Shown: piece after piece, positions 1 to 11,742 of the stretch
Numbering within the stretch: position 1 is the first letter of the stretch
Layout: each line of letters starts with the position of its first letter
Sequence record: PV577657
Direction: 5' to 3' (one strand)
From: Escherichia phage vB_EcoS_MM-1
DNA: 64,000 nt
Translations under genes and position numbers: made by a program
Notes under the pieces: model-generated
Database searches by the model: none
The model's input: the letters and a program-made list of their open reading frames with translations, nothing else
Told to the model about the DNA's origin: nothing

Positions 1-123
1 GTCCAGTGGGTCGGGGGAGAATACTTAGTCTGCTAACCGCCACCCCCCGTTACTATTATCATGGTAATTGTTTCACCCTGCAATTAAAATGGTTGCAGGG
101 TGAAACAATTTCAACTTTAATTA

Positions 124-858
124 TTACGCAACTTTTAATTTCTCGATATATTGTTGCGGGCTGCAACTATATTCTGCGCGTTCTTCCTCGGTCATACCTT
201 CCCAACATAATTTCAAACGATCAGCTAGGAATTGATAATCATTATCATCATCGAGGGATTCATCAATAAAGGTTTCACCTATCAATGCCACGCCGATTGA
301 TAGAATATCGTTAACGGCTTGCGCGTCCAGCGTTTTAAATCCGTATGATGCCGCCGCTGATAGTACACCCTTATGATCATCAATCATTGTAAAATCAGCG
401 TTCGGATATAACTGTTTAAATAATTCAAAATAATAAGATTTATAAACTGCGTCTTTGCTGTGGTATATCTCGCTAACTTTATCAGCCTCAAAATATTTAT
501 GCAGTGTATCGCGAGAAAACACGCGGATATTACTATCACCACGACCGCGCAAGCCTTGTTTGCGCAAATAATAATAGTCCGACTTGCTCATTAGTCGAGC
601 GGTACAAATAATGTTTAAAGTATTTGCGTCATTCATGCACTGGCGCATATATGTAACAAGGGGCAATAAAGTATCTTGCATTATTAAATCATGTTTGCAG
701 GCTTCATTTTTATACTTATTTAAATCTAAATTGCCCTCGCTATCAAAGCAAGGCGCTACACGATGGAAAGAATTAATGATAGTGCCGTCCAGATCCCAAA
801 TCATGACGCGGGAAATATGCGGGAAATTACGGGTAATATTCATTTTAACTTGATTCAT
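124..858 (-). CDS. dmp: HAD-superfamily 5'-deoxyribonucleotidase-like (dmp-like)
   Basis: HAD motif I 'MIWDLDGTI' near N-terminus; start moved to ATG after GGAGAA RBS (244 aa); position at left end matches T5 dmp. Confidence 0.6.
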   Translation of the reverse strand: MNQVKMNITRNFPHISRVMIWDLDGTIINSFHRVAPCFDSEGNLDLNKYKNEACKHDLIMQDTLLPLVTYMRQCMNDANTLNIICTARLMSKSDYYYLRKQGLRGRGDSNIRVFSRDTLHKYFEADKVSEIYHSKDAVYKSYYFELFKQLYPNADFTMIDDHKGVLSAAASYGFKTLDAQAVNDILSIGVALIGETFIDESLDDDNDYQFLADRLKLCWEGMTEEERAEYSCSPQQYIEKLKVA

Positions 859-938
859 TTTGTTACGTTCTCCATTAAAGGGATTTAGTTTATCCAGCAT
901 TACCCGCTATTTATAAGCGGGTAATAATAAATCAACTA

Positions 939-1331
939 TTAAAGACCATAAGCCAACGCATCAGCGATAAAACTAACATCCTCACCGGATACGCTAGAAC
1001 GAATCCCCGCGCAGGTGTATACCTTTGCGCTCGCTAGCTGATCATCAAGGCAAGCGGGGCAAGGCGCGACAACTGCAAAGGCTAGACCAGATTTTACCGC
1101 GTCAATAATGATTGTTTCTTGTTTCATCGTGTCAACATAAACGCCTTTTGCTTTAATATGGCTGGTTAGTTTGCCTTGCGTATAGGCAAAGGTAGTAACC
1201 TGTAAAGCGTCATTGAAATCTAATAATTCATCAATAACGTGCCCCGCCTCGACGTGGTAACGTTCACCATTAGAATAAACCAGAACAATGGAAGACTGAG
1301 CGCGATCGAATGGAATATTTTGCTTTTTCAT
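939..1331 (-). CDS. hypothetical pre-early protein with HxE and PCxxC motifs
   Basis: 130-aa ORF; 'HVEAGH' and 'PCPAC' are reminiscent of zinc deaminase ligands but spacing is atypical. Confidence 0.45.
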   Translation of the reverse strand: MKKQNIPFDRAQSSIVLVYSNGERYHVEAGHVIDELLDFNDALQVTTFAYTQGKLTSHIKAKGVYVDTMKQETIIIDAVKSGLAFAVVAPCPACLDDQLASAKVYTCAGIRSSVSGEDVSFIADALAYGL

Positions 1332-1370
1332 ACTTATAAAACTCCAATTAGTTTAATATAGGGATTTAAT

Positions 1371-1661
1371 TTATTTGATAATAATCTGCATCTGGTACGG
1401 CGTTAATTCACCGTTTACGGGTAAATTATTATCGCTTAGCCACTCATAAAAAGCGCCATCATCATCAAAAGGAACAACATCATTATCACGATAATCGATG
1501 GAAATAATGCCATCCGTATTAGTTTTGGCGGCTAGGATAGGCCCAAAGCTGTAAACTTTATCGGATTCCATTTCATCCGGTGAGATGAATGCTTTTTCGT
1601 CCAATGTTTTGGGTAATGTAACTTTCATTTTTTGACTCCTGTAATAGCGGCTATATTTCAA
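1371..1661 (-). CDS. hypothetical protein
   Basis: 96-aa ORF packed between neighbours on same strand. Confidence 0.45.
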   Translation of the reverse strand: MKYSRYYRSQKMKVTLPKTLDEKAFISPDEMESDKVYSFGPILAAKTNTDGIISIDYRDNDVVPFDDDGAFYEWLSDNNLPVNGELTPYQMQIIIK

Positions 1662-1681
1662 GCCGCTAGGGGATAATTTAA

Positions 1682-3346
1682 TTACGCGAAAAATTTACCG
1701 TTTTTAAAGTCAATCAAAGTGCGCTGACCGTTTGCATAGGTAATTAAATGCGTTTGCGTCCAGCTTGACGCGCCAACGTTGTAACCCATATCCAGACTAC
1801 CAGCTACGCCAGCGGTATAAACGCCACCGTAAATGCTAGCGGTATGGGTGTGTCCCGTGTTTAGCTTGCCCAATTTCTTAAACTGTTTAGGATTGCCACG
1901 ACTGCCGTTAATGCCGTTGTGACCGTGTACGCCGCACTCAATGCCTGCAATCTTGAAAGATTGATCAGTGGTTAGGAAAATGGCGTTAAACTCACAACCT
2001 GCAACCTTGCGCAGCGCATAATCTAGCACGTTAAAAGTATCATCATGATCACTGATCGCCGCGTAAATTGCAGCATTCAGGCGGTGATATAGTTCGGCGT
2101 TGGCTGGATCGTCTTTGATGTTAGCATTACGATCATCTAACCAGCGGGATAGCGCCAAATCGTGATTAGATTCAACAATGATTGTTTGAGAGAAATCACG
2201 TTCCATTGATTCCAGCACGCGCCCCGTATCGATAAGATCATCCAGAACTTTATCACGTCCAGCGGCATACTGTTTTGCTAGGAATACACCGGATGCACGG
2301 TTATGATGATTGCGCGATGTAAAATCATGCACGTCATGGATAAACTGATATTTTGGTTTAAGAATATCAAGCAAGCTATTTTCGCCAGCCCATGACGCAA
2401 CGGCACAATCATCATCTAATTTTTCCGCATGAATATCGCCATACTGCAAGCCTAAAACATGCCCCGATGTTTCATAGCATCCGGCAGGAGTAGCGCAAAC
2501 ATTCAGATCATAAAACACCCCGCTTTCGTCCATTGTTTCAAGCTGGCGAACAAAAAATTCCCCGTCCTCGTCGAACTCAACAATCAGCGCGCCGAAGTTA
2601 TGCAGAGCTTCCGCTTTTTGTCCTGCTTTCTGCTGAATATAGTTTTTAAGCGTTGCCGTTCCGGTTGAATACATACGGCGCACTACTTCACCTTTTAAAG
2701 CTGGCACGCTTTCAGCGGTGATTTTAGCGTGACCAATTGCCAGCCCCTCAATATTGAGCGCCGTTGCAGTTTCTGCAAATCCTGAAAGCGGGTAATCTGC
2801 GGTTGGCAAAACATTAATTTCAGCCATGAAAGCAAAACGGCGGTTATTTAAAAACACGTTTTTGCTGCAAATATATTTATCAAATGCGGGATCGTATTTG
2901 ATACCGTCTGCACCTTCTTCATTCTGGAAGCCATTTTTATTATAAATATACTTAGAAACAAGCAAATCAGCACCGATATATTCAGCGAATTTTTCCAGAC
3001 TTGCTAAAAAGTTTTTATGCGGGAAAGTATTATTTTGAATCGACGTAATAATAAAGCGTTTACCCTGTTTTACTTCCCATTGCTCAACCGTACTAGAAAC
3101 AATTCCCGCCGCTTCTGGGCGCTCATCGTTTTTAATGGCTTTTGCTACTTTTGCCGCTTTCGGTTTAGCTGGTTTATTTGCTTCCAGCCAGTCGCAGATA
3201 GCGGTTGAATGCTTCGTTGTATCGTAGACCGCTTTTGATATATCGTCGCAGACTTCCAGTTTAGTAGCGCGCAGACGTTTACCATAGAAATTAAAGTCAG
3301 CGGCCATTTTCAGGATAACGGTTTGTTTTTCTGCGGAAATAATCAT
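1682..3346 (-). CDS. A1: A1-like pre-early protein, calcineurin-like metallophosphoesterase/nuclease fold
   Basis: 554 aa; motifs GDIH, SNHD, GHTH in phosphoesterase order; size and position match T5 A1. Confidence 0.6.
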   Translation of the reverse strand: MIISAEKQTVILKMAADFNFYGKRLRATKLEVCDDISKAVYDTTKHSTAICDWLEANKPAKPKAAKVAKAIKNDERPEAAGIVSSTVEQWEVKQGKRFIITSIQNNTFPHKNFLASLEKFAEYIGADLLVSKYIYNKNGFQNEEGADGIKYDPAFDKYICSKNVFLNNRRFAFMAEINVLPTADYPLSGFAETATALNIEGLAIGHAKITAESVPALKGEVVRRMYSTGTATLKNYIQQKAGQKAEALHNFGALIVEFDEDGEFFVRQLETMDESGVFYDLNVCATPAGCYETSGHVLGLQYGDIHAEKLDDDCAVASWAGENSLLDILKPKYQFIHDVHDFTSRNHHNRASGVFLAKQYAAGRDKVLDDLIDTGRVLESMERDFSQTIIVESNHDLALSRWLDDRNANIKDDPANAELYHRLNAAIYAAISDHDDTFNVLDYALRKVAGCEFNAIFLTTDQSFKIAGIECGVHGHNGINGSRGNPKQFKKLGKLNTGHTHTASIYGGVYTAGVAGSLDMGYNVGASSWTQTHLITYANGQRTLIDFKNGKFFA

Positions 3347-3436
3347 AGTAATAAAACTCCATTAAAGGGATTAGATTAATAACGGCAATATTGCCAAATA
3401 TAACGCCTCAAATAATAGGCGTTATAATTTGCAACA

Positions 3437-3634
3437 TTAATTTAAAGGCACTAGGCTAGAACTAACACCACAAGCAACGGCAGCGATAAAACAAAGCAAG
3501 CCCAAACGTTTTGCTAATTTAGATTTACGTTTAAAATAATATGAATCTAAATCATTTTGAAAATAAGCGAACAATAACGAGGGCGCCATAATAAACAAGC
3601 CTAGAATTAATGATTCAGTAGGATAAAAGATCAT
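3437..3634 (-). CDS. small membrane protein
   Basis: 65 aa with two hydrophobic segments. Confidence 0.4.
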   Translation of the reverse strand: MIFYPTESLILGLFIMAPSLLFAYFQNDLDSYYFKRKSKLAKRLGLLCFIAAVACGVSSSLVPLN

Positions 3635-3728
3635 TTTAAAAACTCCTGATTTAAGGGAAGAAAATAACTATCGCTAAACAGTTATATTATTGCCCCCTCA
3701 CTAAAAAAAGGGGGGCAAGGTATAACTA

Positions 3729-4136
3729 TTATTCGCCTGCGGCTTGTTTTACTTCCTCGGCAACGCCTAACAATTGCGCTACTGCGTCCAGCGTTTCAAG
3801 TTTTGCACTTTCAAGGCTTGCCAGATCATCGGCATCTTTGATAATGCCGGAATCGATAGCGTGTTTTGCAATAACGCGTACATAATGAGCTTTGCGGATT
3901 GAACTACCGCCGCCAACTTTGCGGGGCTTACCGCTTTTTTGATATGCTTTTGCGCTGGTCAATTTTGACCGAACGGATACGGGAGAAGCCGCGCCTACTG
4001 CTTTTGCAATCTCTTTCAGGCCGTCGCTATTTGCGAAATCTAAACCGTTTTCATTAATTAACTGTTGATACATGGAAACAGCTTTCTGAGTGTTTTCTTC
4101 ATTCCATGCGAATTTTGCGGTTTTAGCGTTAGTCAT
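3729..4136 (-). CDS. A2: A2-like pre-early protein
   Basis: 135 aa, immediately downstream of A1-like gene; assignment by size and synteny only. Confidence 0.4.
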   Translation of the reverse strand: MTNAKTAKFAWNEENTQKAVSMYQQLINENGLDFANSDGLKEIAKAVGAASPVSVRSKLTSAKAYQKSGKPRKVGGGSSIRKAHYVRVIAKHAIDSGIIKDADDLASLESAKLETLDAVAQLLGVAEEVKQAAGE

Positions 4137-4232
4137 GATGTAACTCCTATTAGTTTAATTTAAGGGATTAGATTAACTTAATGTTAATCGTTATATCCCC
4201 CTGAAATAAGGGGATATAAAGTTAACACTAAT

Positions 4233-4484
4233 TTACAATACAGCTTCCCATTTTTCGTTGCGTTGAACAACCTTTACAACATCGCCGGATTTAACGCGAA
4301 CGCTAAAAACGGGCTTGCCGTTGTTACTACGTTCATTTTCAGCGTATACCGCGTCGATTGTATCGAACGGCATAAGCGCCGCACCTTTAATACGTTCGGC
4401 CTTTCCGGTTAATTCATCCGTTTTAGTAACGAAAGGAATGAAGACGAATTGACCAACTTTCGGCGCGGTAATAACGTTTTGCAT
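4233..4484 (-). CDS. hypothetical protein
   Basis: 83-aa ORF. Confidence 0.45.
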   Translation of the reverse strand: MQNVITAPKVGQFVFIPFVTKTDELTGKAERIKGAALMPFDTIDAVYAENERSNNGKPVFSVRVKSGDVVKVVQRNEKWEAVL

Positions 4485-4519
4485 AATATAAACTCCTAGT
4501 TATTTGGGGATTGTTCCGC

Positions 4520-4549
4520 ATTACCTGCTAGAAAGTAACAGCAGGTAAT
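4520..4549. other. 10-bp stem hairpin (attacctgct / agcaggtaat)
   Basis: perfect inverted repeat with 10-nt loop; no flanking U-run on either strand. Confidence 0.5.
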
Positions 4550-4714
4550 AAGTAACAATCCGCTCGCCAATATAATCAATTTTAAAGAACTCCACGTAGG
4601 CCGCTATATCCCGTTAGGGGGCGGGATGCATTATGGTAAGCACCGACCGTCAAATTTTATCAAGTTATCGCTCTTATCGAACTGGGTACATCTTAAAACC
4701 TATCGGCTAGGTTG

Positions 4715-4918
4715 TCAAACAATTTTTTGCAATTTTTTATGATTTTCTTTTAGGTCAATCATAATATTTCGCCAGATCATTTCCAGACCTTGCTGGCGAC
4801 CTTTCTTGTACTGCGTGAATCTATATCTTACTGATCTTTGAGCTACTGTCAACAAATTTTTTGTTTTGCTATCTAGTGCCTTAATAGGCTTGCCAGTGAT
4901 CAAAAGCGTTTGTTTCAT
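4715..4918 (-). CDS. small basic protein
   Basis: 67 aa, Lys/Arg-rich; AAGGAA RBS upstream of ATG. Confidence 0.4.
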   Translation of the reverse strand: MKQTLLITGKPIKALDSKTKNLLTVAQRSVRYRFTQYKKGRQQGLEMIWRNIMIDLKENHKKLQKIV

Positions 4919-5365
4919 ATCGTCGATTCCTTATAATGAATAAGTTTACCGCCGATAGGCTTTAAGATGTACCCAATTTTTAAAGAGCGTGGCGGTAAAC
5001 TTCCCGCCGTGTAGTTCGTCATTGCCGCCCTACGAGATAAATAATAGGGGATTCCCGAAAATGGCGCAACCTTATTTTTGTAAAGAAATGTAAAGGTAAA
5101 ACTCACCGGACACCGTGCGGCGACGGCCTAAAATTAAAAGAAACGGGCGCGCGAATACCACAAAATAAAGCAAATAGGCAAGTAATTTTTTCATTTATAT
5201 TTGCTTTGCCCTACTTGACAAAATCTAAAAAGCTCGTGGTAACGATAAACGGCTTATCCCCTTATGATGGGATGGCTAAAAACTTTATTGCGTTCTGGAG
5301 CGTTTTAGGCGCATTCTAGCCTTGTTGATAACTTATCCCCAAAAGCAAAAATGAAATTTTCCTAG

Positions 5366-5398
5366 TTATCCACTTGACTTTTATTTTCCAGTGGATAA
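5366..5398. promoter_or_regulatory. inverted pair of DnaA-box-like 9-mers
   Basis: TTATCCACT and its reverse complement AGTGGATAA separated by 15 bp (consensus TTATCCACA). Confidence 0.5.
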
Positions 5399-5662
5399 CT
5401 ACTTATTTTATGAAATAAATTAATTGACTTTTATTTGTTAGTATGCATCGGAAAGATAGCAGACTAATAATTGCTAGAATGATAATCATGCTGGTGGATT
5501 GTAACGACCTGAATTATTAGCAGACTATTAATCACGGAAAAATCTCATTAGCCAACTAACTATTTCATGATATATAATATACATATAAATTAATGAGAAA
5601 TAATAACTATAAGAAATCATCTAGCTAAGTGAGAACCACTATCATTTAAGTTATACACAAAG

Positions 5663-5671
5663 TTATCCACA
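5663..5671. promoter_or_regulatory. DnaA box, perfect consensus
   Basis: TTATCCACA. Confidence 0.5.
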
Positions 5672-6025
5672 GCACTTTTTGACTTGACACGATAGGCGGC
5701 GATATAAGGACTTTTACACAGACTTATCTACAGGTTATTCCACTGTATAAATATACAGGGTAAAAAGGTAGTGTTAACAACTGCAATCAATTTTAAGCGG
5801 CTTAAATCGCATTCTAACGAGCTAAACGCTGCGGGGTAATATTAAAGTAAAGCCTTAATGCGTCGCCCTGGTGGCTTCGCCGTGGTTTGCTCTTTATTGC
5901 ACCGCTGCGCGGTTAGCATAAAAATAGGCGCTAGGCAAGGAAAATAAAAAGGTAAAATAATATTTGCCTATGCTAGAAATTTACCTTTATCATTCACTCA
6001 CCGATTAACGAGGGAGGCCGAACAA

Positions 6026-6805
6026 ATGAGGCTTTATAAACCTGATAATGCCACCGTTTTAAAAGGTGCATTGCGCAACCTGCTGGATGGTAGCAAGTCA
6101 ACCAGCATTAAACATTTTATTAACAAGATTGAAACTATTCATCAAAACTTTTTTGATGATTATGACGCTTATGATATGGATAGTTTTCTACCCTTATATA
6201 GACAAGGGGCAACGCTAGTTTTATATAATCGGGATTGCCATATCTTTACAGGCAGGGGAGCGGGGCCGGATACCGATTTTATTGTTGCGCAGGGTAATAA
6301 TATTGTTGCGTATCATAGCAATTCAGGCCGTCAATCATTTAATATAAATAGTTTTGAGCTTATTGGACTTGATCTGATAAATGGACTTTCTAGCATTGAG
6401 GGATTTTTAGATGTTATCTGGAAGTATTTACCCGCTGGATGGCATAAGCCGGATAACGACGGATCTCAATATACCGGTATAATGGCTTTTGATGGCGACG
6501 GTAATTTTTTGTTACCACGGGAGCTATACCCATATATTTATGATGGGGATATAGAAAGCGCTGGTTTTTCTTTCTGGAAAGATGAAGATCAGATTATTGA
6601 CAGCGTAGAAAACCATGCTGTAAATTCTAACACTCAAAGCGTTAACACTCAAACTACTGAAAACAAAGGAAAAAACACTATGACCAAGATTGCTAACATC
6701 GTTGCCGCTAATAAATCCGCCGTTGTAAATGCTGCAAAACTGGAAGCGGGTAAAATTGCACTGACTCAAATCACGAAAGTAGCGGCTAAAAAGCACCGTT
6801 CATGA
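6026..6805 (+). CDS. hypothetical protein
   Basis: 259 aa; GAGGGAGG RBS 8 nt upstream. Confidence 0.6.
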   Translation: MRLYKPDNATVLKGALRNLLDGSKSTSIKHFINKIETIHQNFFDDYDAYDMDSFLPLYRQGATLVLYNRDCHIFTGRGAGPDTDFIVAQGNNIVAYHSNSGRQSFNINSFELIGLDLINGLSSIEGFLDVIWKYLPAGWHKPDNDGSQYTGIMAFDGDGNFLLPRELYPYIYDGDIESAGFSFWKDEDQIIDSVENHAVNSNTQSVNTQTTENKGKNTMTKIANIVAANKSAVVNAAKLEAGKIALTQITKVAAKKHRS

Positions 6806-7035
6806 TTAAAGGCTATATTGATACGCCGATTGGTCGAGTAGTGATTGCTAACCTGCTAAGTGTAGCGGTTGACCAGTACGCACCGACTAACCAGAAAGCG
6901 AAAGCGGTAGCAGGGGCGGCTATGGAAGCGGCAATGCTGGAAATGGTGCAAAGTTTTAACATCGCTGAAATGATTGATGAAATGGTGAAAGGTATTGATA
7001 TTTCTACTTTTACCACTAGCACCGAAATCGAGTAA
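6802..7035 (+). CDS. hypothetical protein
   Basis: 77 aa; ATGA start/stop overlap with upstream gene. Confidence 0.45.
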   Translation: MIKGYIDTPIGRVVIANLLSVAVDQYAPTNQKAKAVAGAAMEAAMLEMVQSFNIAEMIDEMVKGIDISTFTTSTEIE

Positions 7036-7100
7036 TAATATTTAGTGGGGATTATTTCCCCACTTTACTACTCCCTTGTTAATTAATAGGAGGCTAACTA

Positions 7101-7595
7101 ATGGCTGAGGAAAAATACGGCTTCTCGCTAGGAGAAGTGAGCACGGCTAAACATGATATGATCATTTTAGTCGATTGTCATACTGGCTATTGCGGAGAAG
7201 GGAACACCGAAGAATACTTTGTTCCTGCTGGTACGGATCTGGACGCTTTCGCTCATGAAATGGCTATTGATAATGCTTCTCGTTTTGGTAGCGATGGCTA
7301 TGAAGACGAAGAAACTGGCGAATGGTATGAAAATGAAAACGTATATGCAAGCCTTTATCATTATCAGCTAAGTAAATCCGGCACATATGTAAACGGCGGC
7401 GATCCTATTAATTCCGTCATGAAATTAATTATTAAATATGGTGGCGTCGAGATAATTGATAACAAAGCGGTAATATACGCAAACCGATTAAAACAGCTTG
7501 TTTATATTCCTGATAGTACCCGATGGGATGAATACGCTGTTTTGCATGACGAATTGAAACGATGTTTCAATATTGAATCCCTGCAAGTAGTCTAA
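7101..7595 (+). CDS. hypothetical acidic protein
   Basis: 164 aa; AGGAGG RBS. Confidence 0.6.
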   Translation: MAEEKYGFSLGEVSTAKHDMIILVDCHTGYCGEGNTEEYFVPAGTDLDAFAHEMAIDNASRFGSDGYEDEETGEWYENENVYASLYHYQLSKSGTYVNGGDPINSVMKLIIKYGGVEIIDNKAVIYANRLKQLVYIPDSTRWDEYAVLHDELKRCFNIESLQVV

Positions 7596-7608
7596 TGTAA
7601 AGTTTTGT

Positions 7609-7638
7609 AAAGGTCGCCTTTTATGGTGGCCTTTTTTG
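7609..7638 (+). terminator. rho-independent terminator
   Basis: 9-bp stem (two G-U pairs) followed by TTTTTTGTT. Confidence 0.55.
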
Positions 7639-7700
7639 TTATAATGCTTTTACACCAAAACGGTGGATTGAAAATTTTCCCAAAAATTTGGAGGCTTAAA

Positions 7701-7931
7701 ATGGTTGCTTATTCTTCTGCTAGTCATCTGTTTACCGCGCAAGGCTGGGTATCTAATCGTGCTGTCATCTATGAAATGGTGCAGGAGTTCGGCATTGCTA
7801 AAACTTATAATACCATTCAGGAACTATATAACGCCGATAAAATCGATCAGCAAACGGCTGGCTTTTTACTGGATACCCTGAAAGCTGAACATTGCACTAA
7901 AAAACAAGCCGCTAAAATTGTTTTAATGTAA
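7701..7931 (+). CDS. hypothetical protein
   Basis: start moved from track 7623 to ATG after GGAGG RBS, because the 7623 extension runs through the upstream terminator. Confidence 0.5.
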   Translation: MVAYSSASHLFTAQGWVSNRAVIYEMVQEFGIAKTYNTIQELYNADKIDQQTAGFLLDTLKAEHCTKKQAAKIVLM

Positions 7932-7980
7932 TTAATAACGGGGCGTTACTTTCGCCCCGATAACTAGGAGGCTATCACAA

Positions 7981-8130
7981 ATGGTTATTTTTCGATCTAT
8001 TTTAGCGGGTATCTTGGGCGCTATTTTATCGTTATTTGCGATAGCTTTCGGCGTTCACGCTGTTATTATTGGCGCTGGCATTGCTGCGTTTTCTTATCTG
8101 CTGGGCTGCATGACTAGTAAAGGAGAATAA
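7981..8130 (+). CDS. small hydrophobic membrane protein
   Basis: 49 aa, below ORF-track cutoff; AGGAGG RBS; Gly/Ala-rich TM segment. Confidence 0.4.
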   Translation: MVIFRSILAGILGAILSLFAIAFGVHAVIIGAGIAAFSYLLGCMTSKGE

Positions 8131-8132
8131 AA

Positions 8133-8345
8133 ATGATCCGCAACGTTTCCCTTGCACGTTCGAAAGGCTTTAAGCTGGTGGATGTTAACACGTTCGAGTG
8201 GGAAGATTGTAAAATCGAATATGTAGCACGTAACAAAAATGCCTTTCGTGTTACCGAGAAAAAATTTGATAAGCGCGGCAACGTGATAGCTGAAACAGTT
8301 AAACATTTTGCCACCTTTTACGCTGCTTTCCGTGGGGTATTATGA
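8133..8345 (+). CDS. hypothetical protein
   Basis: 70 aa; AAGGAGAA RBS. Confidence 0.5.
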   Translation: MIRNVSLARSKGFKLVDVNTFEWEDCKIEYVARNKNAFRVTEKKFDKRGNVIAETVKHFATFYAAFRGVL

Positions 8346-8460
8346 TTCAGCAAATTAAAACGGCTTTTCGTTTTTGGGGCGTCCTGCCTTCAATTGGTTT
8401 TATTCTGATAATTATTAGTCAGCTAATGATCATCGGCGGAACTATTTGGGAGCTATGCAA

Positions 8461-8805
8461 ATGATAATTTATGAAGGCAATCGCTTTGTTGCTAATTGCC
8501 GTCCGGCATTATTAGCAAACTATTTAAACCAGCTTTCCCCAGCTTATAAGGGCGTTATTAATATTTATGAGGGAAAGGCGCATTATAAAATTAATGCGGT
8601 CGTTGCCCGTGAACTAGCATTTCAATTTTTGACCTTTGCATCTTGTGACGTTCAGGTTATGGGTGAGGCATTAATCGCGGAAAATGAAGAGGATTTTATT
8701 AATATTTTCCGTAAGGTATGCACTGAGCGCTTGATAATGAAAGGCGCGTATATTCAATCAACTGCGGAAAGTATTGAAACAGCATTTCGAAAGGTGGCGC
8801 AATGA
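8461..8805 (+). CDS. hypothetical protein
   Basis: ORF track 8446..8805; ATG at 8461 gives ATGA coupling with upstream small ORF. Confidence 0.5.
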   Translation: MIIYEGNRFVANCRPALLANYLNQLSPAYKGVINIYEGKAHYKINAVVARELAFQFLTFASCDVQVMGEALIAENEEDFINIFRKVCTERLIMKGAYIQSTAESIETAFRKVAQ

Positions 8806-9028
8806 GATTATATATTTTCGTTGGTAATGTTAAGGCAGCTAATGATTCCGCTGGTGGCGACAACGTTCGCCACCATTGGCAAAAATATATTTACTAGGAG
8901 TTATTATGTCTGGTTTAATGTTTACCTTATTAGTAGTTTATAGCATAATTACGGCAGGAATAGTAACTTATGTTACTAGTAAAATTTGGCCGGGAATATA
9001 TGGTAATTTTTAATAACGGAGCGTTATT

Positions 9029-9232
9029 ATGAGCAATAAAATTATTGTAACCAAAATCAGTACAATGGTTGATGTTTTTTACGTGCCAGATACGCCGGAG
9101 AATCGGCAAGCGGTCGAGCGGGGCGAATATGATAAAGTGATTTATGATCACGATGGTTATTATCAGTATTTGGTGGATTCCTACGGGGAGGAGGAGAAGA
9201 TCACGCATCGACTACCGGAGGAGGGTTTATGA
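9029..9232 (+). CDS. hypothetical acidic protein
   Basis: 67 aa; GGAG RBS. Confidence 0.5.
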   Translation: MSNKIIVTKISTMVDVFYVPDTPENRQAVERGEYDKVIYDHDGYYQYLVDSYGEEEKITHRLPEEGL

Positions 9233-9381
9233 AACGATGGTTTAATCACTGGTACAAGCGGTTTTTAGTACGCCGTCGCAAGTCTAGGCATCAAGATGAG
9301 TGGCGGGAGTGGGCAAAGCGTAACGGTTGCCCGCTACTATAATAATCACGGGGCGCAACTATCGGGAAGTGCCCCCAATTC

Positions 9382-9406
9382 TCAAATGAGAATCATTCTC
9401 ATTTGA
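9382..9406. repeat. 25-bp perfect palindrome
   Basis: tcaaatgagaat-c-attctcatttga, 12-1-12. Confidence 0.9.
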
Positions 9407-9626
9407 CCGCGCCCGCGATGGTTAGCCTGCTAATGATTAGGGTGTTACGTGTCGCCTTGTGTGATCGTTAGCGAGCTAACTAATTTTCAAGCCTCCTCCA
9501 ATTTTGCCCTTGTTTTAGTATCTCCACCAAAATTAAACGCGTTAGAATGCGATCTAGGACGTTTTAACGCTATATTAGAATTATTCACTGCGTAGGAATA
9601 CTGTATATTTATACAGTAGGATAAGC

Positions 9627-9708
9627 TGTGGATAAGTCTGTTAATAACACCCCAAAATGGCTAGGATTCTGTCAAGTCAAATCGTGCTGTTAATAAGTCT
9701 GTGGATAA
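9627..9708. promoter_or_regulatory. two DnaA boxes in direct orientation
   Basis: TGTGGATAA at 9627-9635 and 9700-9708, each beside a ctgttaataa motif. Confidence 0.5.
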
Positions 9709-9719
9709 CTTAAATAATA

Positions 9720-9910
9720 GTGTTTCTCACTTCCGTTCTTAAATACGAATCACTATCATTTGCGTTCCACTTTCTAAATGAGAATCATTCTGCTTTTTAA
9801 AGGAGAATCGTTTCACTTCCTGAATAATTCTCACTTCCATTCTTAAATGCGAATTATTATCATTCTCATTCCGCTTTTTAAATGAGAATCATTCTCATTA
9901 TCATTCGCAT
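9720..9910. repeat. array of direct and inverted repeats
   Basis: repeated cttccgttcttaaatacgaat and aaatgagaatcattctcatt units; ORF-free. Confidence 0.8.
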
Positions 9911-9941
9911 TCAGGCGAGCAGGGCAATTGCCCTGCGCTTT

Positions 9942-10542
9942 TGTGCAAATCCGACATTGCTCCACGGGTGTTACGTGCGGGCGTGTATGTGCGAATCCGA
10001 CAATTTTTGGTAGTGTGCAAATCCGACCCGAAAAATTTTTATAGTGTGCAAATCCGACAATGAATTTTCCTAAAAACTCCAGCAATCACGAACTGCGTTC
10101 GAATCCTGTGGGGTATGTGCAAATCCGACACGGTTTTTCTAGGATTAAGATGTGCGAATCCGACAAGATTTTTGTGACTTCGATTGGAGGGTGTGTGATT
10201 GTGTGAGTTTGGGGAGAAGTTGAGAGAGCGAGAAAAATTTGAGGGAACTGCGGGAGGGGCGCATGTTTGGTGCGGAGCACCTGATTTGCGGGGATTTTGG
10301 GGAAGAGTTGAGAAGATTTGGGTTAATTTGAGATTAGTGCAGAAAAAGTAAAATTTTATTAGCTAAATGGAGCAAAATAGCTTGACAAGTGAAAATTCTT
10401 GTGGCTCTAAAAACTCAGGCAATCATGGGCCTTCGGCCCGAAATAATGCTGCCATTTTCAGGAGATTATGTGTCCATGAAAACTTAGGCAATTGTGCAAA
10501 TCCGACCAGTTTTTAAACTTATGTCAGTGTGCAAATCCGACA
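9942..10542 (+). repeat. eight direct copies of 15-mer TGTGC(A/G)AATCCGAC(A/C)
   Basis: copies at 9942, 9988, 10014, 10045, 10116, 10151, 10493, 10528; same orientation, irregular spacing, each followed by a T-run. Confidence 0.9.
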
Positions 10543-10564
10543 GTAATTTCTGGAAATGTGTTTT

Positions 10565-10640
10565 GGAAAAATGCCCTCTAGAAATAACCGCCCTCCCAAT
10601 AACCGCCCTGTATTAAACCGCCTAGTATATGTTCCTAGAA
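10565..10640. repeat. AACCGCCCT and CTAGAAA short direct repeats
   Basis: four AACCGCC(C)T copies within 75 bp. Confidence 0.7.
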
Positions 10641-10986
10641 ACTTAAGAGAACCGCCCTAGAAAGAGGGAGTATTTCGTGAGAACTCTGGAGTTTCTAGGA
10701 AAGTGTTGTGCCATCCTAGCAGAAGAGCGGCAACCGGTGTATCATCTTGAACACAAATATTGCCTTTAAATATTTTTAGTTATTTAAAAGTAAATATACC
10801 CCCATTTCATGTGAGATTCCTCGTGGGGCGCGTGAGTATTACGGAAGAACTCTAATATTGGCCCGCGCTAAGACTAGCCGCTATAGCACAGACGCAAATA
10901 GAGTTGTAATAATCATCGCCCCTAGAGTTCACAATAAGAGTTATTGTTAATCTATGAGATTATTATAACATACATTTTTAATAACG

Positions 10987-11742
10987 TCAAGAAGATTTTA
11001 CTAATGTTTTTGGATTCTTCTTGGCTTTGAGATATATCCCTTTAGATGCTAGATAGATATATGTTGCTAGAAATGAAGATTCTGATCCCGATTCCTCATA
11101 GGTTAACGTACCTCTAGGGTATTTATTTGTTTTAGGAGCATAGTTAAGCACAGCCGCAGTTAATGACCCTAATCCTAGAACATCTGCAAGACGTCTAAAG
11201 GTATTCTCTTCATCATGGATAGCATAAAGAATGTTATCTTCAATATCCGTTAATGGAATTTTACGGGTATGAGATACTGCAATCCGTGCTATCATAGCTC
11301 CAATTGTTTTATTAATATCCTCGAAAGAAACACTCTCCATATATTTTAGAGGGGGAAGATGGTCATATTTACATTTCTTAGGTGGAATAAGAAGTTGTTC
11401 AGGATAAGCCTCTAGTGCCTGACGAACGTTTGCTTCTGGATATGTTGGTAAAGGTTCATCTATAATAACATGTAAGAAATTAGCTCTGTGCCCCTTAGCA
11501 GTTGGATCTAAAGACTTCAATATTTTGTTCATATCCACGTATGAATACGCTAGATCTGCTTGAGGAGCATTAATATCAAACTTAATCTTCTTACCTTCCC
11601 ATTTAGCAGGGAACATCTCACAAACAAACATTACTGCATGTTTAACATCTGGCTCTAGCTCTGATAGACATTTGTGATCTGCTGTTACTGCTAAAGCGAG
11701 TATATTCTTAAATTTATTAGCTTCTTCAATCATATATCCCAT
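10987..11742 (-). CDS. hypothetical protein, AT-rich island
   Basis: 251-aa ORF. Confidence 0.55.
   Translation of the reverse strand: MGYMIEEANKFKNILALAVTADHKCLSELEPDVKHAVMFVCEMFPAKWEGKKIKFDINAPQADLAYSYVDMNKILKSLDPTAKGHRANFLHVIIDEPLPTYPEANVRQALEAYPEQLLIPPKKCKYDHLPPLKYMESVSFEDINKTIGAMIARIAVSHTRKIPLTDIEDNILYAIHDEENTFRRLADVLGLGSLTAAVLNYAPKTNKYPRGTLTYEESGSESSFLATYIYLASKGIYLKAKKNPKTLVKSS

What the first reader, a model, noticed from the sequence alone, without database searches (positions are those of the whole stretch)
5100..6025. ORF-free 0.9 kb with DnaA-box-like 9-mers, including an inverted pair
TTATCCACT and AGTGGATAA form an inverted pair at 5366-5398 and a perfect TTATCCACA lies at 5663. 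With the two boxes near 9.6-9.7 kb, host DnaA-binding sites flank the plus-strand small-gene block (6.0-9.3 kb). This suggests host DnaA involvement in DNA entry control or replication.
Basis: partly seen in the sequence, partly recalled or inferred. Interest (0 to 1): 0.45.

Follow-up and report, generated by a model that had tools for sequence, protein, structure and literature searches.

The report
Known T5 DnaA-box control region
This stretch is the already-described non-coding control region in the first-injected DNA of a T5-like phage; its paired DnaA-type boxes are real and deeply conserved, but whether host DnaA uses them to pause DNA entry is a published idea that nobody has tested.

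Summary
The window begins at the left terminal repeat of a Tequintavirus (T5-like phage). The stretch 5000-6100 is 100% identical to phages vB_EcoS_MM-2 and ECOP18. Region 5100-6025 corresponds to T5 "Repeat Regions 1+2", which lie between the leftward (dmp/A1/A2) and rightward pre-early genes.

All the quoted 9-mers are present. The conserved part is a 132-bp module at 5627-5758 ("IRC-spacer-IRD"). It holds two tandem pairs of DnaA-type boxes and has an inverted copy at 9601-9732, inside the region that T5 RefSeq annotates as the injection stop signal.

Across 29 genomes the box positions vary as the DnaA consensus TTWTNCACA allows, except position 6. The module is found in 541 phage records and reaches Klebsiella and Pectobacterium phages in full and a Vibrio phage in part.

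Davison (bioRxiv 2020, citing a 1987 observation) already proposed DnaA boxes flanking this block as an entry-control device, and papers up to 2026 say it is untested. I found no origin-of-replication features.

One possible addition: each module ends in a near-consensus LexA (SOS) box, which I did not find described.

Verdict: real, non-random, already known.

The parts
5323..5341 (.). Back-to-back pair of one-mismatch DnaA-like 9-mers: TGTTGATAA, then C, then TTATCCCCA.
   Evidence: Found. It is part of block 5311-5378, which is 82.6% conserved in Klebsiella phage IME260. T5 carries a box-free allele here.
5363..5401 (.). It is a 15-nt-arm inverted repeat, a possible hairpin, and is specific to one allele.
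   Evidence: I23. As RNA it folds at -16.2 kcal/mol, z = -5.6. It is invariant in 12 of 28 genomes; the genomes lacking it include T5, L016, L033 and all those with a full-length HNH insert, while L036 and L039 keep only the left half.
5430..5515 (.). Variable segment and insertion hot spot. In T5 and about half of the relatives, a 172-174-aa HNH homing endonuclease gene (hegG) sits here. The window has no insert.
   Evidence: Alignment with T5. Segment lengths range from 511 to 1019 nt, and ORFs in relatives are listed. T5 RefSeq annotates hegG here.
5549..5578 (+). Conserved promoter-like site, TAGCCA-18-TATAAT, pointing rightward into arm 1.
   Evidence: Consensus scan. It is conserved in all short-type genomes and in T5. 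Function is inferred only.
5596..5626 (.). One copy of a roughly 31-nt unit (AATAATAACTATAAGAAATCATC...) that is tandemly repeated up to about 7 times in relatives.
   Evidence: Alignment.
5627..5758 (+). Arm 1, the 'IRC-spacer-IRD' module of T5. In order it contains: the outer block AGTGAGAAnCACT..ATTTAAG; box pair 1 (5651-5659, 5663-5671); a spacer with TTGACTTGACA; box pair 2 (5712-5720, 5724-5732); and a palindrome.
   Evidence: Inverted repeat I1. It aligns without gaps to T5 6022-6152, which is annotated as inverted repeats C and D. It is conserved in 29 genomes.
5741..5760 (.). CTGT-N8-ACAG palindrome at the inner end of arm 1: CACTGTATAAATATACAGGG. It resembles a LexA box, with 4 mismatches to the consensus.
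5792..5826 (.). Extension of the inverted repeat. It pairs with 9533-9567 and overlaps T5's IRB'.
   Evidence: (I3).
5964..5993 (+). Promoter of the rightward pre-early operon: TTGCCT-18-TATCAT with an A-rich upstream block. The ribosome-binding site GGGAGG and the ATG at 6026 follow.
   Evidence: Scan. It is strongly conserved. The equivalent T5 site is annotated as a promoter, and a promoter upstream of gene 011 has been characterised experimentally.
6026..9595 (+). The rightward pre-early gene cassette enclosed by the two arms. It includes DUF7566 and the Ung-site nicking endonuclease homolog.
   Evidence: Gene content varies among relatives, and the orientation is reversed in IME260 and My1.
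9599..9618 (.). Near-consensus LexA-type palindrome at the inner end of arm 2: TACTGTATATTTATACAGTA, matching 19 of 20 positions.
   Evidence: It has 1 mismatch in 24 of 29 genomes.
9601..9732 (-). Arm 2, the 'IRD'-spacer-IRC'' module and the inverted partner of arm 1. Its boxes are at 9627-9635, 9639-9647, 9688-9696 and 9700-9708 (minus strand). It lies inside the region annotated as the injection stop signal in T5.
   Evidence: T5 RefSeq annotates iss at 9140-10149. It is more strongly conserved than arm 1.

Best explanation
What it is (shown). The region is the central non-coding control region of the first-step-transfer (pre-early) DNA of a T5-like phage. Its only deeply conserved element is a 132-bp module at 5627-5758. 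An inverted twin at 9601-9732 lies at the right edge of the first-injected DNA, so the two modules bracket the rightward pre-early cassette.

Each module carries two head-to-tail pairs of DnaA-type 9-mers. Starts within a pair are 12 bp apart, and the two pairs are 61 bp apart. A CTGT-N8-ACAG palindrome sits at the cassette-facing end.

How it most likely works (inferred, not shown). Host DnaA binds the paired boxes co-operatively once the DNA is in the cytoplasm. LexA may also bind the palindrome. The resulting protein-DNA complexes hold or block the first-injected DNA.

The right-hand module would be the main site. [quoted passage not shown] The module inside this finding would be the accessory, dispensable copy. 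It is not a replication origin.
For: Identity:
- The stretch 5000-6100 is 100% identical to Tequintavirus records whose LTR covers 1-10299.
- It aligns without gaps to T5 inverted repeats C and D.

Box pattern:
- In 232 boxes from 29 genomes, positions 1 and 2 are always T. Position 3 is A or T only, position 4 is T in 98%, and position 5 takes any base. Position 7 is A in 94%, position 8 is C in 98%, and position 9 is A in 97%.
- This is the freedom the consensus TTWTNCACA allows. That consensus, from Schaper and Messer, is quoted.

Deep conservation:
- The module occurs in 541 phage records.
- In Sugarlandvirus, Myunavirus and a Vibrio Pogseptimavirus, almost nothing else in the region still aligns, yet the palindrome and the adjacent box pair remain. 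In the Vibrio phage the pair is two perfect TTATCCACA boxes 3 bp apart.

Pairing between the arms is not what is selected:
- The spacers of the two arms differ, yet each is conserved in its own lineage. This fits protein-site conservation better than stem formation.

Position:
- Arm 2 lies in the annotated injection stop signal.
- Davison reports an old observation of a second, smaller first-step DNA band at about 5.85 kb, near arm 1.
Against: - No binding data exist; papers from 2023 and 2026 say functional studies are lacking.
- Position 6 is A rather than the required C in 27% of boxes. This is mostly the inner boxes of arm 2, TTATTAACA and TTATCAACA, so about half of the sites may bind DnaA poorly.
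- Sequences between the boxes are as conserved as the boxes within Tequintavirus, so the boxes are not the only constrained element.
- Some T5-like phages lack arm 1 entirely (Davison's 'Type 4'), so the copy inside this finding cannot be essential.
- The 12-bp repeat spacing differs from the 11-bp spacing of DnaA arrays in E. coli oriC. This point is from my own knowledge.
Confidence: 0.4

Rival explanations
1. The repeated 9-mers are operators for a phage protein made from the first-injected DNA. The most obvious candidate is the dimeric DNA-binding protein A2, alone or with A1. The resemblance to DnaA boxes would then be incidental or mimicry. Binding at both modules would allow second-step transfer to restart, or shut off pre-early transcription.
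Against: The pause happens without phage protein synthesis, so a phage protein cannot cause the stop itself. The pattern W at position 3 and N at position 5 matches DnaA specifically. Several boxes are the perfect E. coli R-box TTATCCACA, even in a Vibrio phage. Nothing links A2 to this sequence.
Confidence: 0.25
2. The modules are transcription boundaries or regulatory sites. DnaA on the boxes (a known orientation-dependent roadblock to RNA polymerase) and LexA on the palindrome would stop polymerase leaving the cassette in either direction. In arm 1 they might also regulate a weak promoter between the box pairs.
For: The modules sit exactly at both ends of the cassette, with the same end facing inward. 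This holds whichever way the cassette is oriented: it is reversed in IME260 and My1. TTGAC is conserved in the spacer, and arm 1 has TTGACT-18-TATAAG with box pair 2 over the expected start site. That DnaA-box complexes can block transcription is from my own knowledge (Schaefer and Messer, 1988).
Against: The putative -10 element lacks the final T and is absent from arm 2. The characterised promoter for the cassette lies 200 nt downstream of arm 1. I found no transcription start-site map.
Confidence: 0.15
3. The arm in this finding is mainly a historical product: an inverted duplication of the injection-stop module. It persists because homologous recombination between the two arms inverts or exchanges the gene cassette. 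Its boxes were simply inherited with it.
For: The whole cassette is inverted between the arms in IME260 and My1 relative to this window. Cassette content and length vary widely; the arms are 1.85 to 4.2 kb apart. The centre of the palindrome flips between AAA and TTT among genomes. Some phages lack arm 1.
Against: All 37 Tequintavirus and Epseptimavirus loci share one orientation, so inversion is rare and ancient. Arm 1 keeps intact boxes over large evolutionary distances even where its flanks no longer align. The arms are not homogenised with each other.
Confidence: 0.08
4. The box clusters form a DnaA-dependent origin of replication.
For: The only support is the general resemblance of clustered DnaA boxes to oriC and plasmid origins.
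Against: The 926 nt contain no GATC sites (2.9 expected) and no 13-mer unwinding element. No similarity to any plasmid was found. According to Davison, T5 origins map near the genome centre and the replication genes are not expressed during first-step transfer.
Confidence: 0.03

Closest known systems
T5 left-terminal-repeat 'Repeat Regions 1 and 2' with the inverted repeats IRC-spacer-IRD and IRD'-spacer-IRC' and the injection stop signal (GenBank AY587007 annotation; Heusterspreute 1987; Davison 2015 and 2020)
   Same: Same position, same 131-132-bp inverted modules, same four box pairs 3 bp apart, same flanking promoters. It aligns without gaps to the annotated T5 features.
   Different: This phage has no HNH endonuclease insert, so regions 1 and 2 are contiguous. 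It has all eight boxes, whereas T5 has seven. It also carries an extra cluster of four one-mismatch boxes at 5323-5398 that T5 lacks.
Chromosomal DnaA-box clusters of E. coli (oriC, datA, DARS)
   Same: Clustered 9-mers fit TTWTNCACA and include the perfect R-box TTATCCACA. They are arranged head-to-tail about one helical turn apart.
   Different: The repeat is 12 bp rather than 11 bp (own knowledge). There are no GATC sites and no unwinding element. No IHF site was identified. The sites are on a lytic phage's first-injected DNA, and no binding has been shown.
LexA (SOS) operators of gamma-proteobacteria, consensus TACTGTATATATATACAGTA
   Same: Arm 2 matches 19 of 20 positions and arm 1 matches 16 of 20. 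The CTGT and ACAG ends are kept in 27/29 and 24/29 genomes, and in Klebsiella and Vibrio phages.
   Different: The palindrome does not overlap an identified promoter. It lies in a strictly lytic phage. T5 plates on recA1 laboratory strains (own knowledge), so LexA cleavage cannot be required for growth.
Plasmid origins with DnaA boxes at both flanks (P1 oriR, F oriS)
   Same: Tandem DnaA boxes sit at both ends of a functional unit. This comparison is from my own knowledge and is only a lead.
   Different: No iterons, no initiator gene, and no sequence similarity to any plasmid. The enclosed unit is a 3.8-kb gene cassette, not an origin core.

Membership tests
T5-type IRC-spacer-IRD module (LTR Repeat Region 2) | Lies in the left terminal repeat, between the leftward dmp/A1/A2 operon and the rightward pre-early operon. 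| tested here: met
   A1 is at 1682-3346 (-), A2 at 3729-4136 (-), and the cassette starts at 6026 (+).
T5-type IRC-spacer-IRD module (LTR Repeat Region 2) | Has an inverted partner of about 131 bp at the right edge of the first-step-transfer DNA. | tested here: met
   5627-5758 versus 9601-9732, 102/132 identical. The same pairing is found in 38 of 39 loci; L037, which shows neither arm, ends too early.
T5-type IRC-spacer-IRD module (LTR Repeat Region 2) | Contains four DnaA-type boxes in two pairs, each pair 3 bp apart, at fixed positions, with a fixed-length spacer between the pairs. | tested here: met
   Box starts are 5651, 5663, 5712 and 5724 in arm 1, and 9627, 9639, 9688 and 9700 in arm 2. 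The arm aligns to T5 6022-6152 at equal length.
DnaA box (E. coli consensus TTWTNCACA) | The 9-mer matches the strict consensus. | tested here: inconclusive
Five of the eight arm boxes match. Three do not: TTATCTACA and two copies of TTATTAACA.
DnaA box (E. coli consensus TTWTNCACA) | Variation among relatives is confined to the positions the consensus leaves free. | tested here: met
   Across 232 instances, position 3 is A or T only, position 5 takes any base, and positions 1, 2, 4, 7, 8 and 9 are 94-100% fixed. The exception is position 6, which is A in 27%. The genomes are related, so the counts are not independent.
DnaA box (E. coli consensus TTWTNCACA) | DnaA protein binds the site. | not testable with these tools
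   I found no binding data in the literature held.
oriC-type replication origin | Has a cluster of GATC sites and an AT-rich 13-mer unwinding element next to the boxes. | tested here: not met
   There are 0 GATC sites in 926 nt (2.9 expected) and no 13-mer with 2 or fewer mismatches.
LexA (SOS) box | A CTGT-N8-ACAG palindrome with an AT-rich centre, close to the 20-mer consensus. | tested here: met
   9599-9618 has 1 mismatch and 5741-5760 has 4. These are the only two 20-mers in 64 kb with 5 or fewer mismatches.
LexA (SOS) box | Overlaps the promoter it represses, and LexA binds it. | tested here: inconclusive
   Only a weak leftward promoter-like site (TTAACA-16-TATATT, 5777-5750) overlaps the arm 1 palindrome, and none overlaps arm 2. 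Binding cannot be tested here.

The most novel reading that the evidence does not exclude
The conserved module may be a composite landing pad for host regulators. It would combine two DnaA-box pairs, a near-consensus LexA operator at the inner end, and an outer block related to the Fur-box-like palindromes that fill the rest of the injection-stop region.

On this reading LexA, an abundant tight-binding dimer, occupies the injection-stop module together with DnaA. It would form part of the roadblock or boundary that holds the first-injected DNA.

I did not find the LexA resemblance described. Davison's 2020 text mentions neither LexA nor SOS, and two literature searches found nothing. However, the 1987 and 2015 papers were not readable here.
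Probability: 0.2. Interest if true: 0.55.

Novelty: already known. Interest (0 to 1): 0.2.

Why it matters
How T5 pauses DNA injection after 8% of its genome, and then restarts, has been open since the 1960s. The DnaA-box modules are the leading sequence candidate for the pause signal, so they define a clear experiment.

This finding does not add to that. The boxes, their pairing, their inverted arrangement around the pre-early cassette and the DnaA entry-control idea are all in print, and are partly annotated in GenBank.

What this check adds is modest:
- A quantitative footprint showing that the boxes vary as DnaA sites should.
- Evidence that the module reaches other genera of the family.
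- Evidence that the cassette has been inverted between the arms during evolution.
- A near-consensus LexA-type box at the inner end of each module, which would be cheap to test alongside DnaA.

Tried and rejected
- **RNA families:** an Rfam scan of 4000-11000 gave only sub-threshold chance hits. One was a microRNA-like hit that merely reflects the 5363-5401 hairpin.
- **Structured RNA at the GC-rich stretches** (5095-5170 and 5855-5925): folding energies were no better than shuffled sequence.
- **Small ORFs in the region:** rejected as genes. They are 40 aa or shorter, and the longest (40 aa, 5072-5194, minus strand) loses its start codon in two relatives and is crossed by an 11-nt indel.
- **Arms pairing as a DNA cruciform or long-range RNA stem:** rejected. 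The spacers of the two arms differ, yet each is conserved in its own right, and no compensatory pattern is seen.
- **Replication origin:** no GATC sites, no 13-mers, no plasmid similarity.
- **A2 as a DnaA-domain-IV-like protein that might read DnaA boxes itself:** the model's best matches are GcrA, Myb and homeodomain-type three-helix domains, and DnaA is not among the top hits. A sequence search of solved structures found nothing.
- **Active, switch-like inversion of the cassette:** rejected, because all 37 close loci share one orientation.
- **LexA cleavage as the trigger for restarting transfer:** considered and set aside. T5 grows on recA1 strains (own knowledge), and A2 mutants degrade host DNA yet still fail to complete transfer.
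- **Locating the leftward promoter that serves hdi:** consensus scanning gave no convincing conserved candidate, and no start-site map was found in the literature.
- **TTAGC-NN-GCTAA palindrome family:** only a weak signal. There were 5 hits against 3.1 expected, although all 5 lie in the first 9.5 kb.
- **Practical failures:** two Python calls failed because a locus file was stored under another name. Davison's 2015 review could not be opened.

Full report
**Where the window comes from.**
The stretch 5000-6100 is 100% identical to Escherichia phages vB_EcoS_MM-2 and ECOP18. It is 92-98% identical to many other Tequintavirus and Epseptimavirus genomes.

In the MM-2 record the same coordinates lie inside a left terminal repeat annotated as 1-10299. 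To the left are the pre-early genes on the minus strand, including the A1 and A2 homologs. To the right, a plus-strand block of small genes starts at 6026.

The finding is therefore the gap between the two divergent pre-early gene sets of a T5-like phage.

**Check of the observation.**
The region has no ORF longer than 40 aa. The longest one is not conserved as a coding sequence.

The boxes are strongly clustered:
- 7 of 32 boxes with one mismatch or none fall in 926 of 64,000 nt (P = 3e-7).
- All 8 TTWTNNACA sites that form tandem pairs lie in two 132-nt segments.

Arm 1 (5627-5758) holds TTATACACA-aag-TTATCCACA and, 61 bp further on, TTTTACACA-gac-TTATCTACA. Arm 2 (9601-9732) is its inverted copy, 102/132 identical, with four boxes on the other strand. 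The inverted relationship continues at 5792-5826 versus 9533-9567.

**This is a described structure.**
The T5 GenBank record AY587007 annotates inverted repeats A, A', B, C, D and B' and pre-early promoters in this gap. It annotates D' and C' near 9.3-9.5 kb. The window's arm 1 aligns at equal length to T5 6022-6152, which covers repeats C and D.

T5 RefSeq labels 9140-10149 'injection stop signal'.

Davison's 2020 preprint compares 25 T5-like phages and makes these points:
- Almost all have eight DnaA boxes in pairs 3 bp apart, two in each of IRC, IRD, IRD' and IRC'.
- The first box was noticed in 1987.
- Replication is an unlikely role, because the origins map mid-genome.
- Membrane-bound DnaA could hold these boxes and stop injection until A1/A2 act.

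Papers from 2023 and 2026 repeat the idea and say it is untested.

**Comparative evidence gathered here.**
I fetched 37 loci through the A2 protein. Both arms are present in every locus long enough to contain them. The arms lie 1.85 to 4.2 kb apart.

In 29 distinct genomes (232 boxes), the positions behave as follows:

| Position | Observed |
|---|---|
| 1, 2 | T, invariant |
| 3 | A or T only |
| 4 | T in 98% |
| 5 | any base |
| 6 | C 71%, A 27% |
| 7 | A in 94% |
| 8 | C in 98% |
| 9 | A in 97% |

That is the DnaA consensus TTWTNCACA apart from position 6. The genomes are related, so these are not independent counts. Even so, the restriction of change to positions 3 and 5 is what selection for DnaA recognition predicts.

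Arm 2 is more conserved than arm 1. The two arms also differ in their spacers in a way that is itself conserved. This argues for protein-site conservation and against selection for pairing between the arms.

The module is found in 541 phage records. In distant genera (Sugarlandvirus IME260, Myunavirus My1, a Vibrio Pogseptimavirus), nearly all other non-coding sequence has diverged beyond alignment. What survives is the palindrome plus the adjacent box pair.

The pair at 5363-5401 would form a 12-bp hairpin. Its 9-mers have T at position 9. It is invariant in 12 of 28 genomes.

T5, L016, L033 and every genome carrying the full-length (172-174 aa) homing-endonuclease gene have a diverged, box-free allele instead. 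L034 is the exception: it keeps the pair alongside a shorter 112-aa ORF of that kind.

The surrounding block, 5311-5378, is old. It is 82.6% identical in IME260, where only the left 9-mer is kept. It also holds a back-to-back pair of mismatched boxes at 5323-5341.

So this region has a second, weaker box cluster that T5 lacks. I did not see it mentioned in Davison's text. Its absence from many relatives shows it is dispensable.

**The rest of the region, from left to right.**
- A conserved block runs up to about 5311.
- A variable segment follows, where the endonuclease gene inserts (about 5430-5515).
- A conserved promoter-like site is at 5549-5578.
- A roughly 31-nt unit follows; it is tandemly repeated in some relatives.
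- Arm 1 comes next.
- A conserved stretch follows arm 1.
- The well-conserved promoter and ribosome-binding site of the first cassette gene are at 5964-6025.

These features rest.

**Mechanism.**
Shown: the modules are conserved, bracket the cassette, and carry sites with the variation pattern of DnaA boxes.

Inferred: DnaA binds them. I rate the published hold-or-roadblock model as the single most likely reading, at about 0.4.

The main points against it are the absence of binding data, the deviation at position 6, and the conservation of sequence outside the boxes. In addition, arm 1 is missing from some phages.

Rivals are:
- Binding by a phage protein such as A2. Its model has a GcrA/Myb-like three-helix DNA-binding domain.
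- A transcription-boundary role.
- A largely historical inverted duplication.

An origin of replication is disfavoured.

**Additions beyond the literature I could read.**
1. The inner end of each module is a CTGT-N8-ACAG palindrome. In arm 2 it is TACTGTATATTTATACAGTA, 19 of 20 matches to the textbook LexA consensus. It has one mismatch in 24 of 29 genomes. These are the only two such 20-mers in 64 kb.
2. The cassette between the arms is inverted in IME260 and My1 relative to this phage, with the arms as the boundaries.
3. The outer block of each arm is related to the Fur-box-like palindromes that fill the injection-stop region.

None of these has been tested, and the 1987 and 2015 papers could not be checked.

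**Verdict.**

Noticed in passing
window 9599-9618 and 5741-5760: The palindrome at the cassette-facing end of each module looks like a LexA (SOS) box. Arm 2 matches the consensus at 19 of 20 positions and arm 1 at 16 of 20. The palindrome is conserved in 29 genomes and in Klebsiella and Vibrio relatives. It is not described as a LexA site in the papers I could read.
   Followed up: partly
window 9375-9404, 9767-9796, 9871-9900; also 233-247: The repeated palindrome TGAGAATCATTCTCA resembles the 7-1-7 Fur-box motif TGATAATnATTATCA (12 of 14 positions). There are 13 hits with 3 or fewer mismatches against 3.25 expected. An exact TGATAATCATTATCA lies inside the dmp gene. The outer block of each arm (5630-5644) is a diverged copy of the same unit.
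   Followed up: partly
window 6026-9595; L042 (IME260) 2484-4931; L041 (My1) 3387-5855: The whole pre-early cassette between the two arms is in the opposite orientation in Klebsiella phage IME260 and Pectobacterium phage My1. Homologs of DUF7566 and of the 164-aa protein are on the other strand in reversed order. The arms are therefore the inversion boundaries. All 37 closer relatives share the window's orientation.
   Followed up: partly
window about 5430-5515: This is the insertion site of a 172-174-aa HNH homing endonuclease gene (T5 hegG), present in about half of the relatives. Genomes carrying the full-length gene also carry a diverged allele of the neighbouring 5312-5400 stretch. That is the pattern expected from co-conversion during homing.
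   Followed up: partly
window 5596-5626: A roughly 31-nt unit (AATAATAACTATAAGAAATCATCACC...) occurs once here but in up to about 7 tandem copies in relatives such as L033, immediately left of arm 1.
   Followed up: no
window 6026-6805 and 6802-7035: Two ORFs that overlap by 4 nt cover one Pfam family, DUF7566: profile positions 5-256 in the first and 260-334 in the second. T5 RefSeq has a single 336-aa gene, T5.011. The gene is therefore split here by a frameshift, a sequencing error or recoding.
   Followed up: no
[not shown]
   Followed up: partly
window 25-36, 5548-5559, 8415-8426, 9422-9433, 9468-9479: A 12-bp palindrome, TTAGC-NN-GCTAA (1 mismatch or none), occurs five times. All five are within the first 9.5 kb, the terminal repeat. 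The total count is not significant (3.1 expected), but the confinement to the repeat is notable.
   Followed up: no
window 9941-10550: Eight copies of TGTGCAAATCCGAC lie around the right boundary of the terminal repeat. These correspond to T5's annotated 'direct repeat D' series.
   Followed up: no
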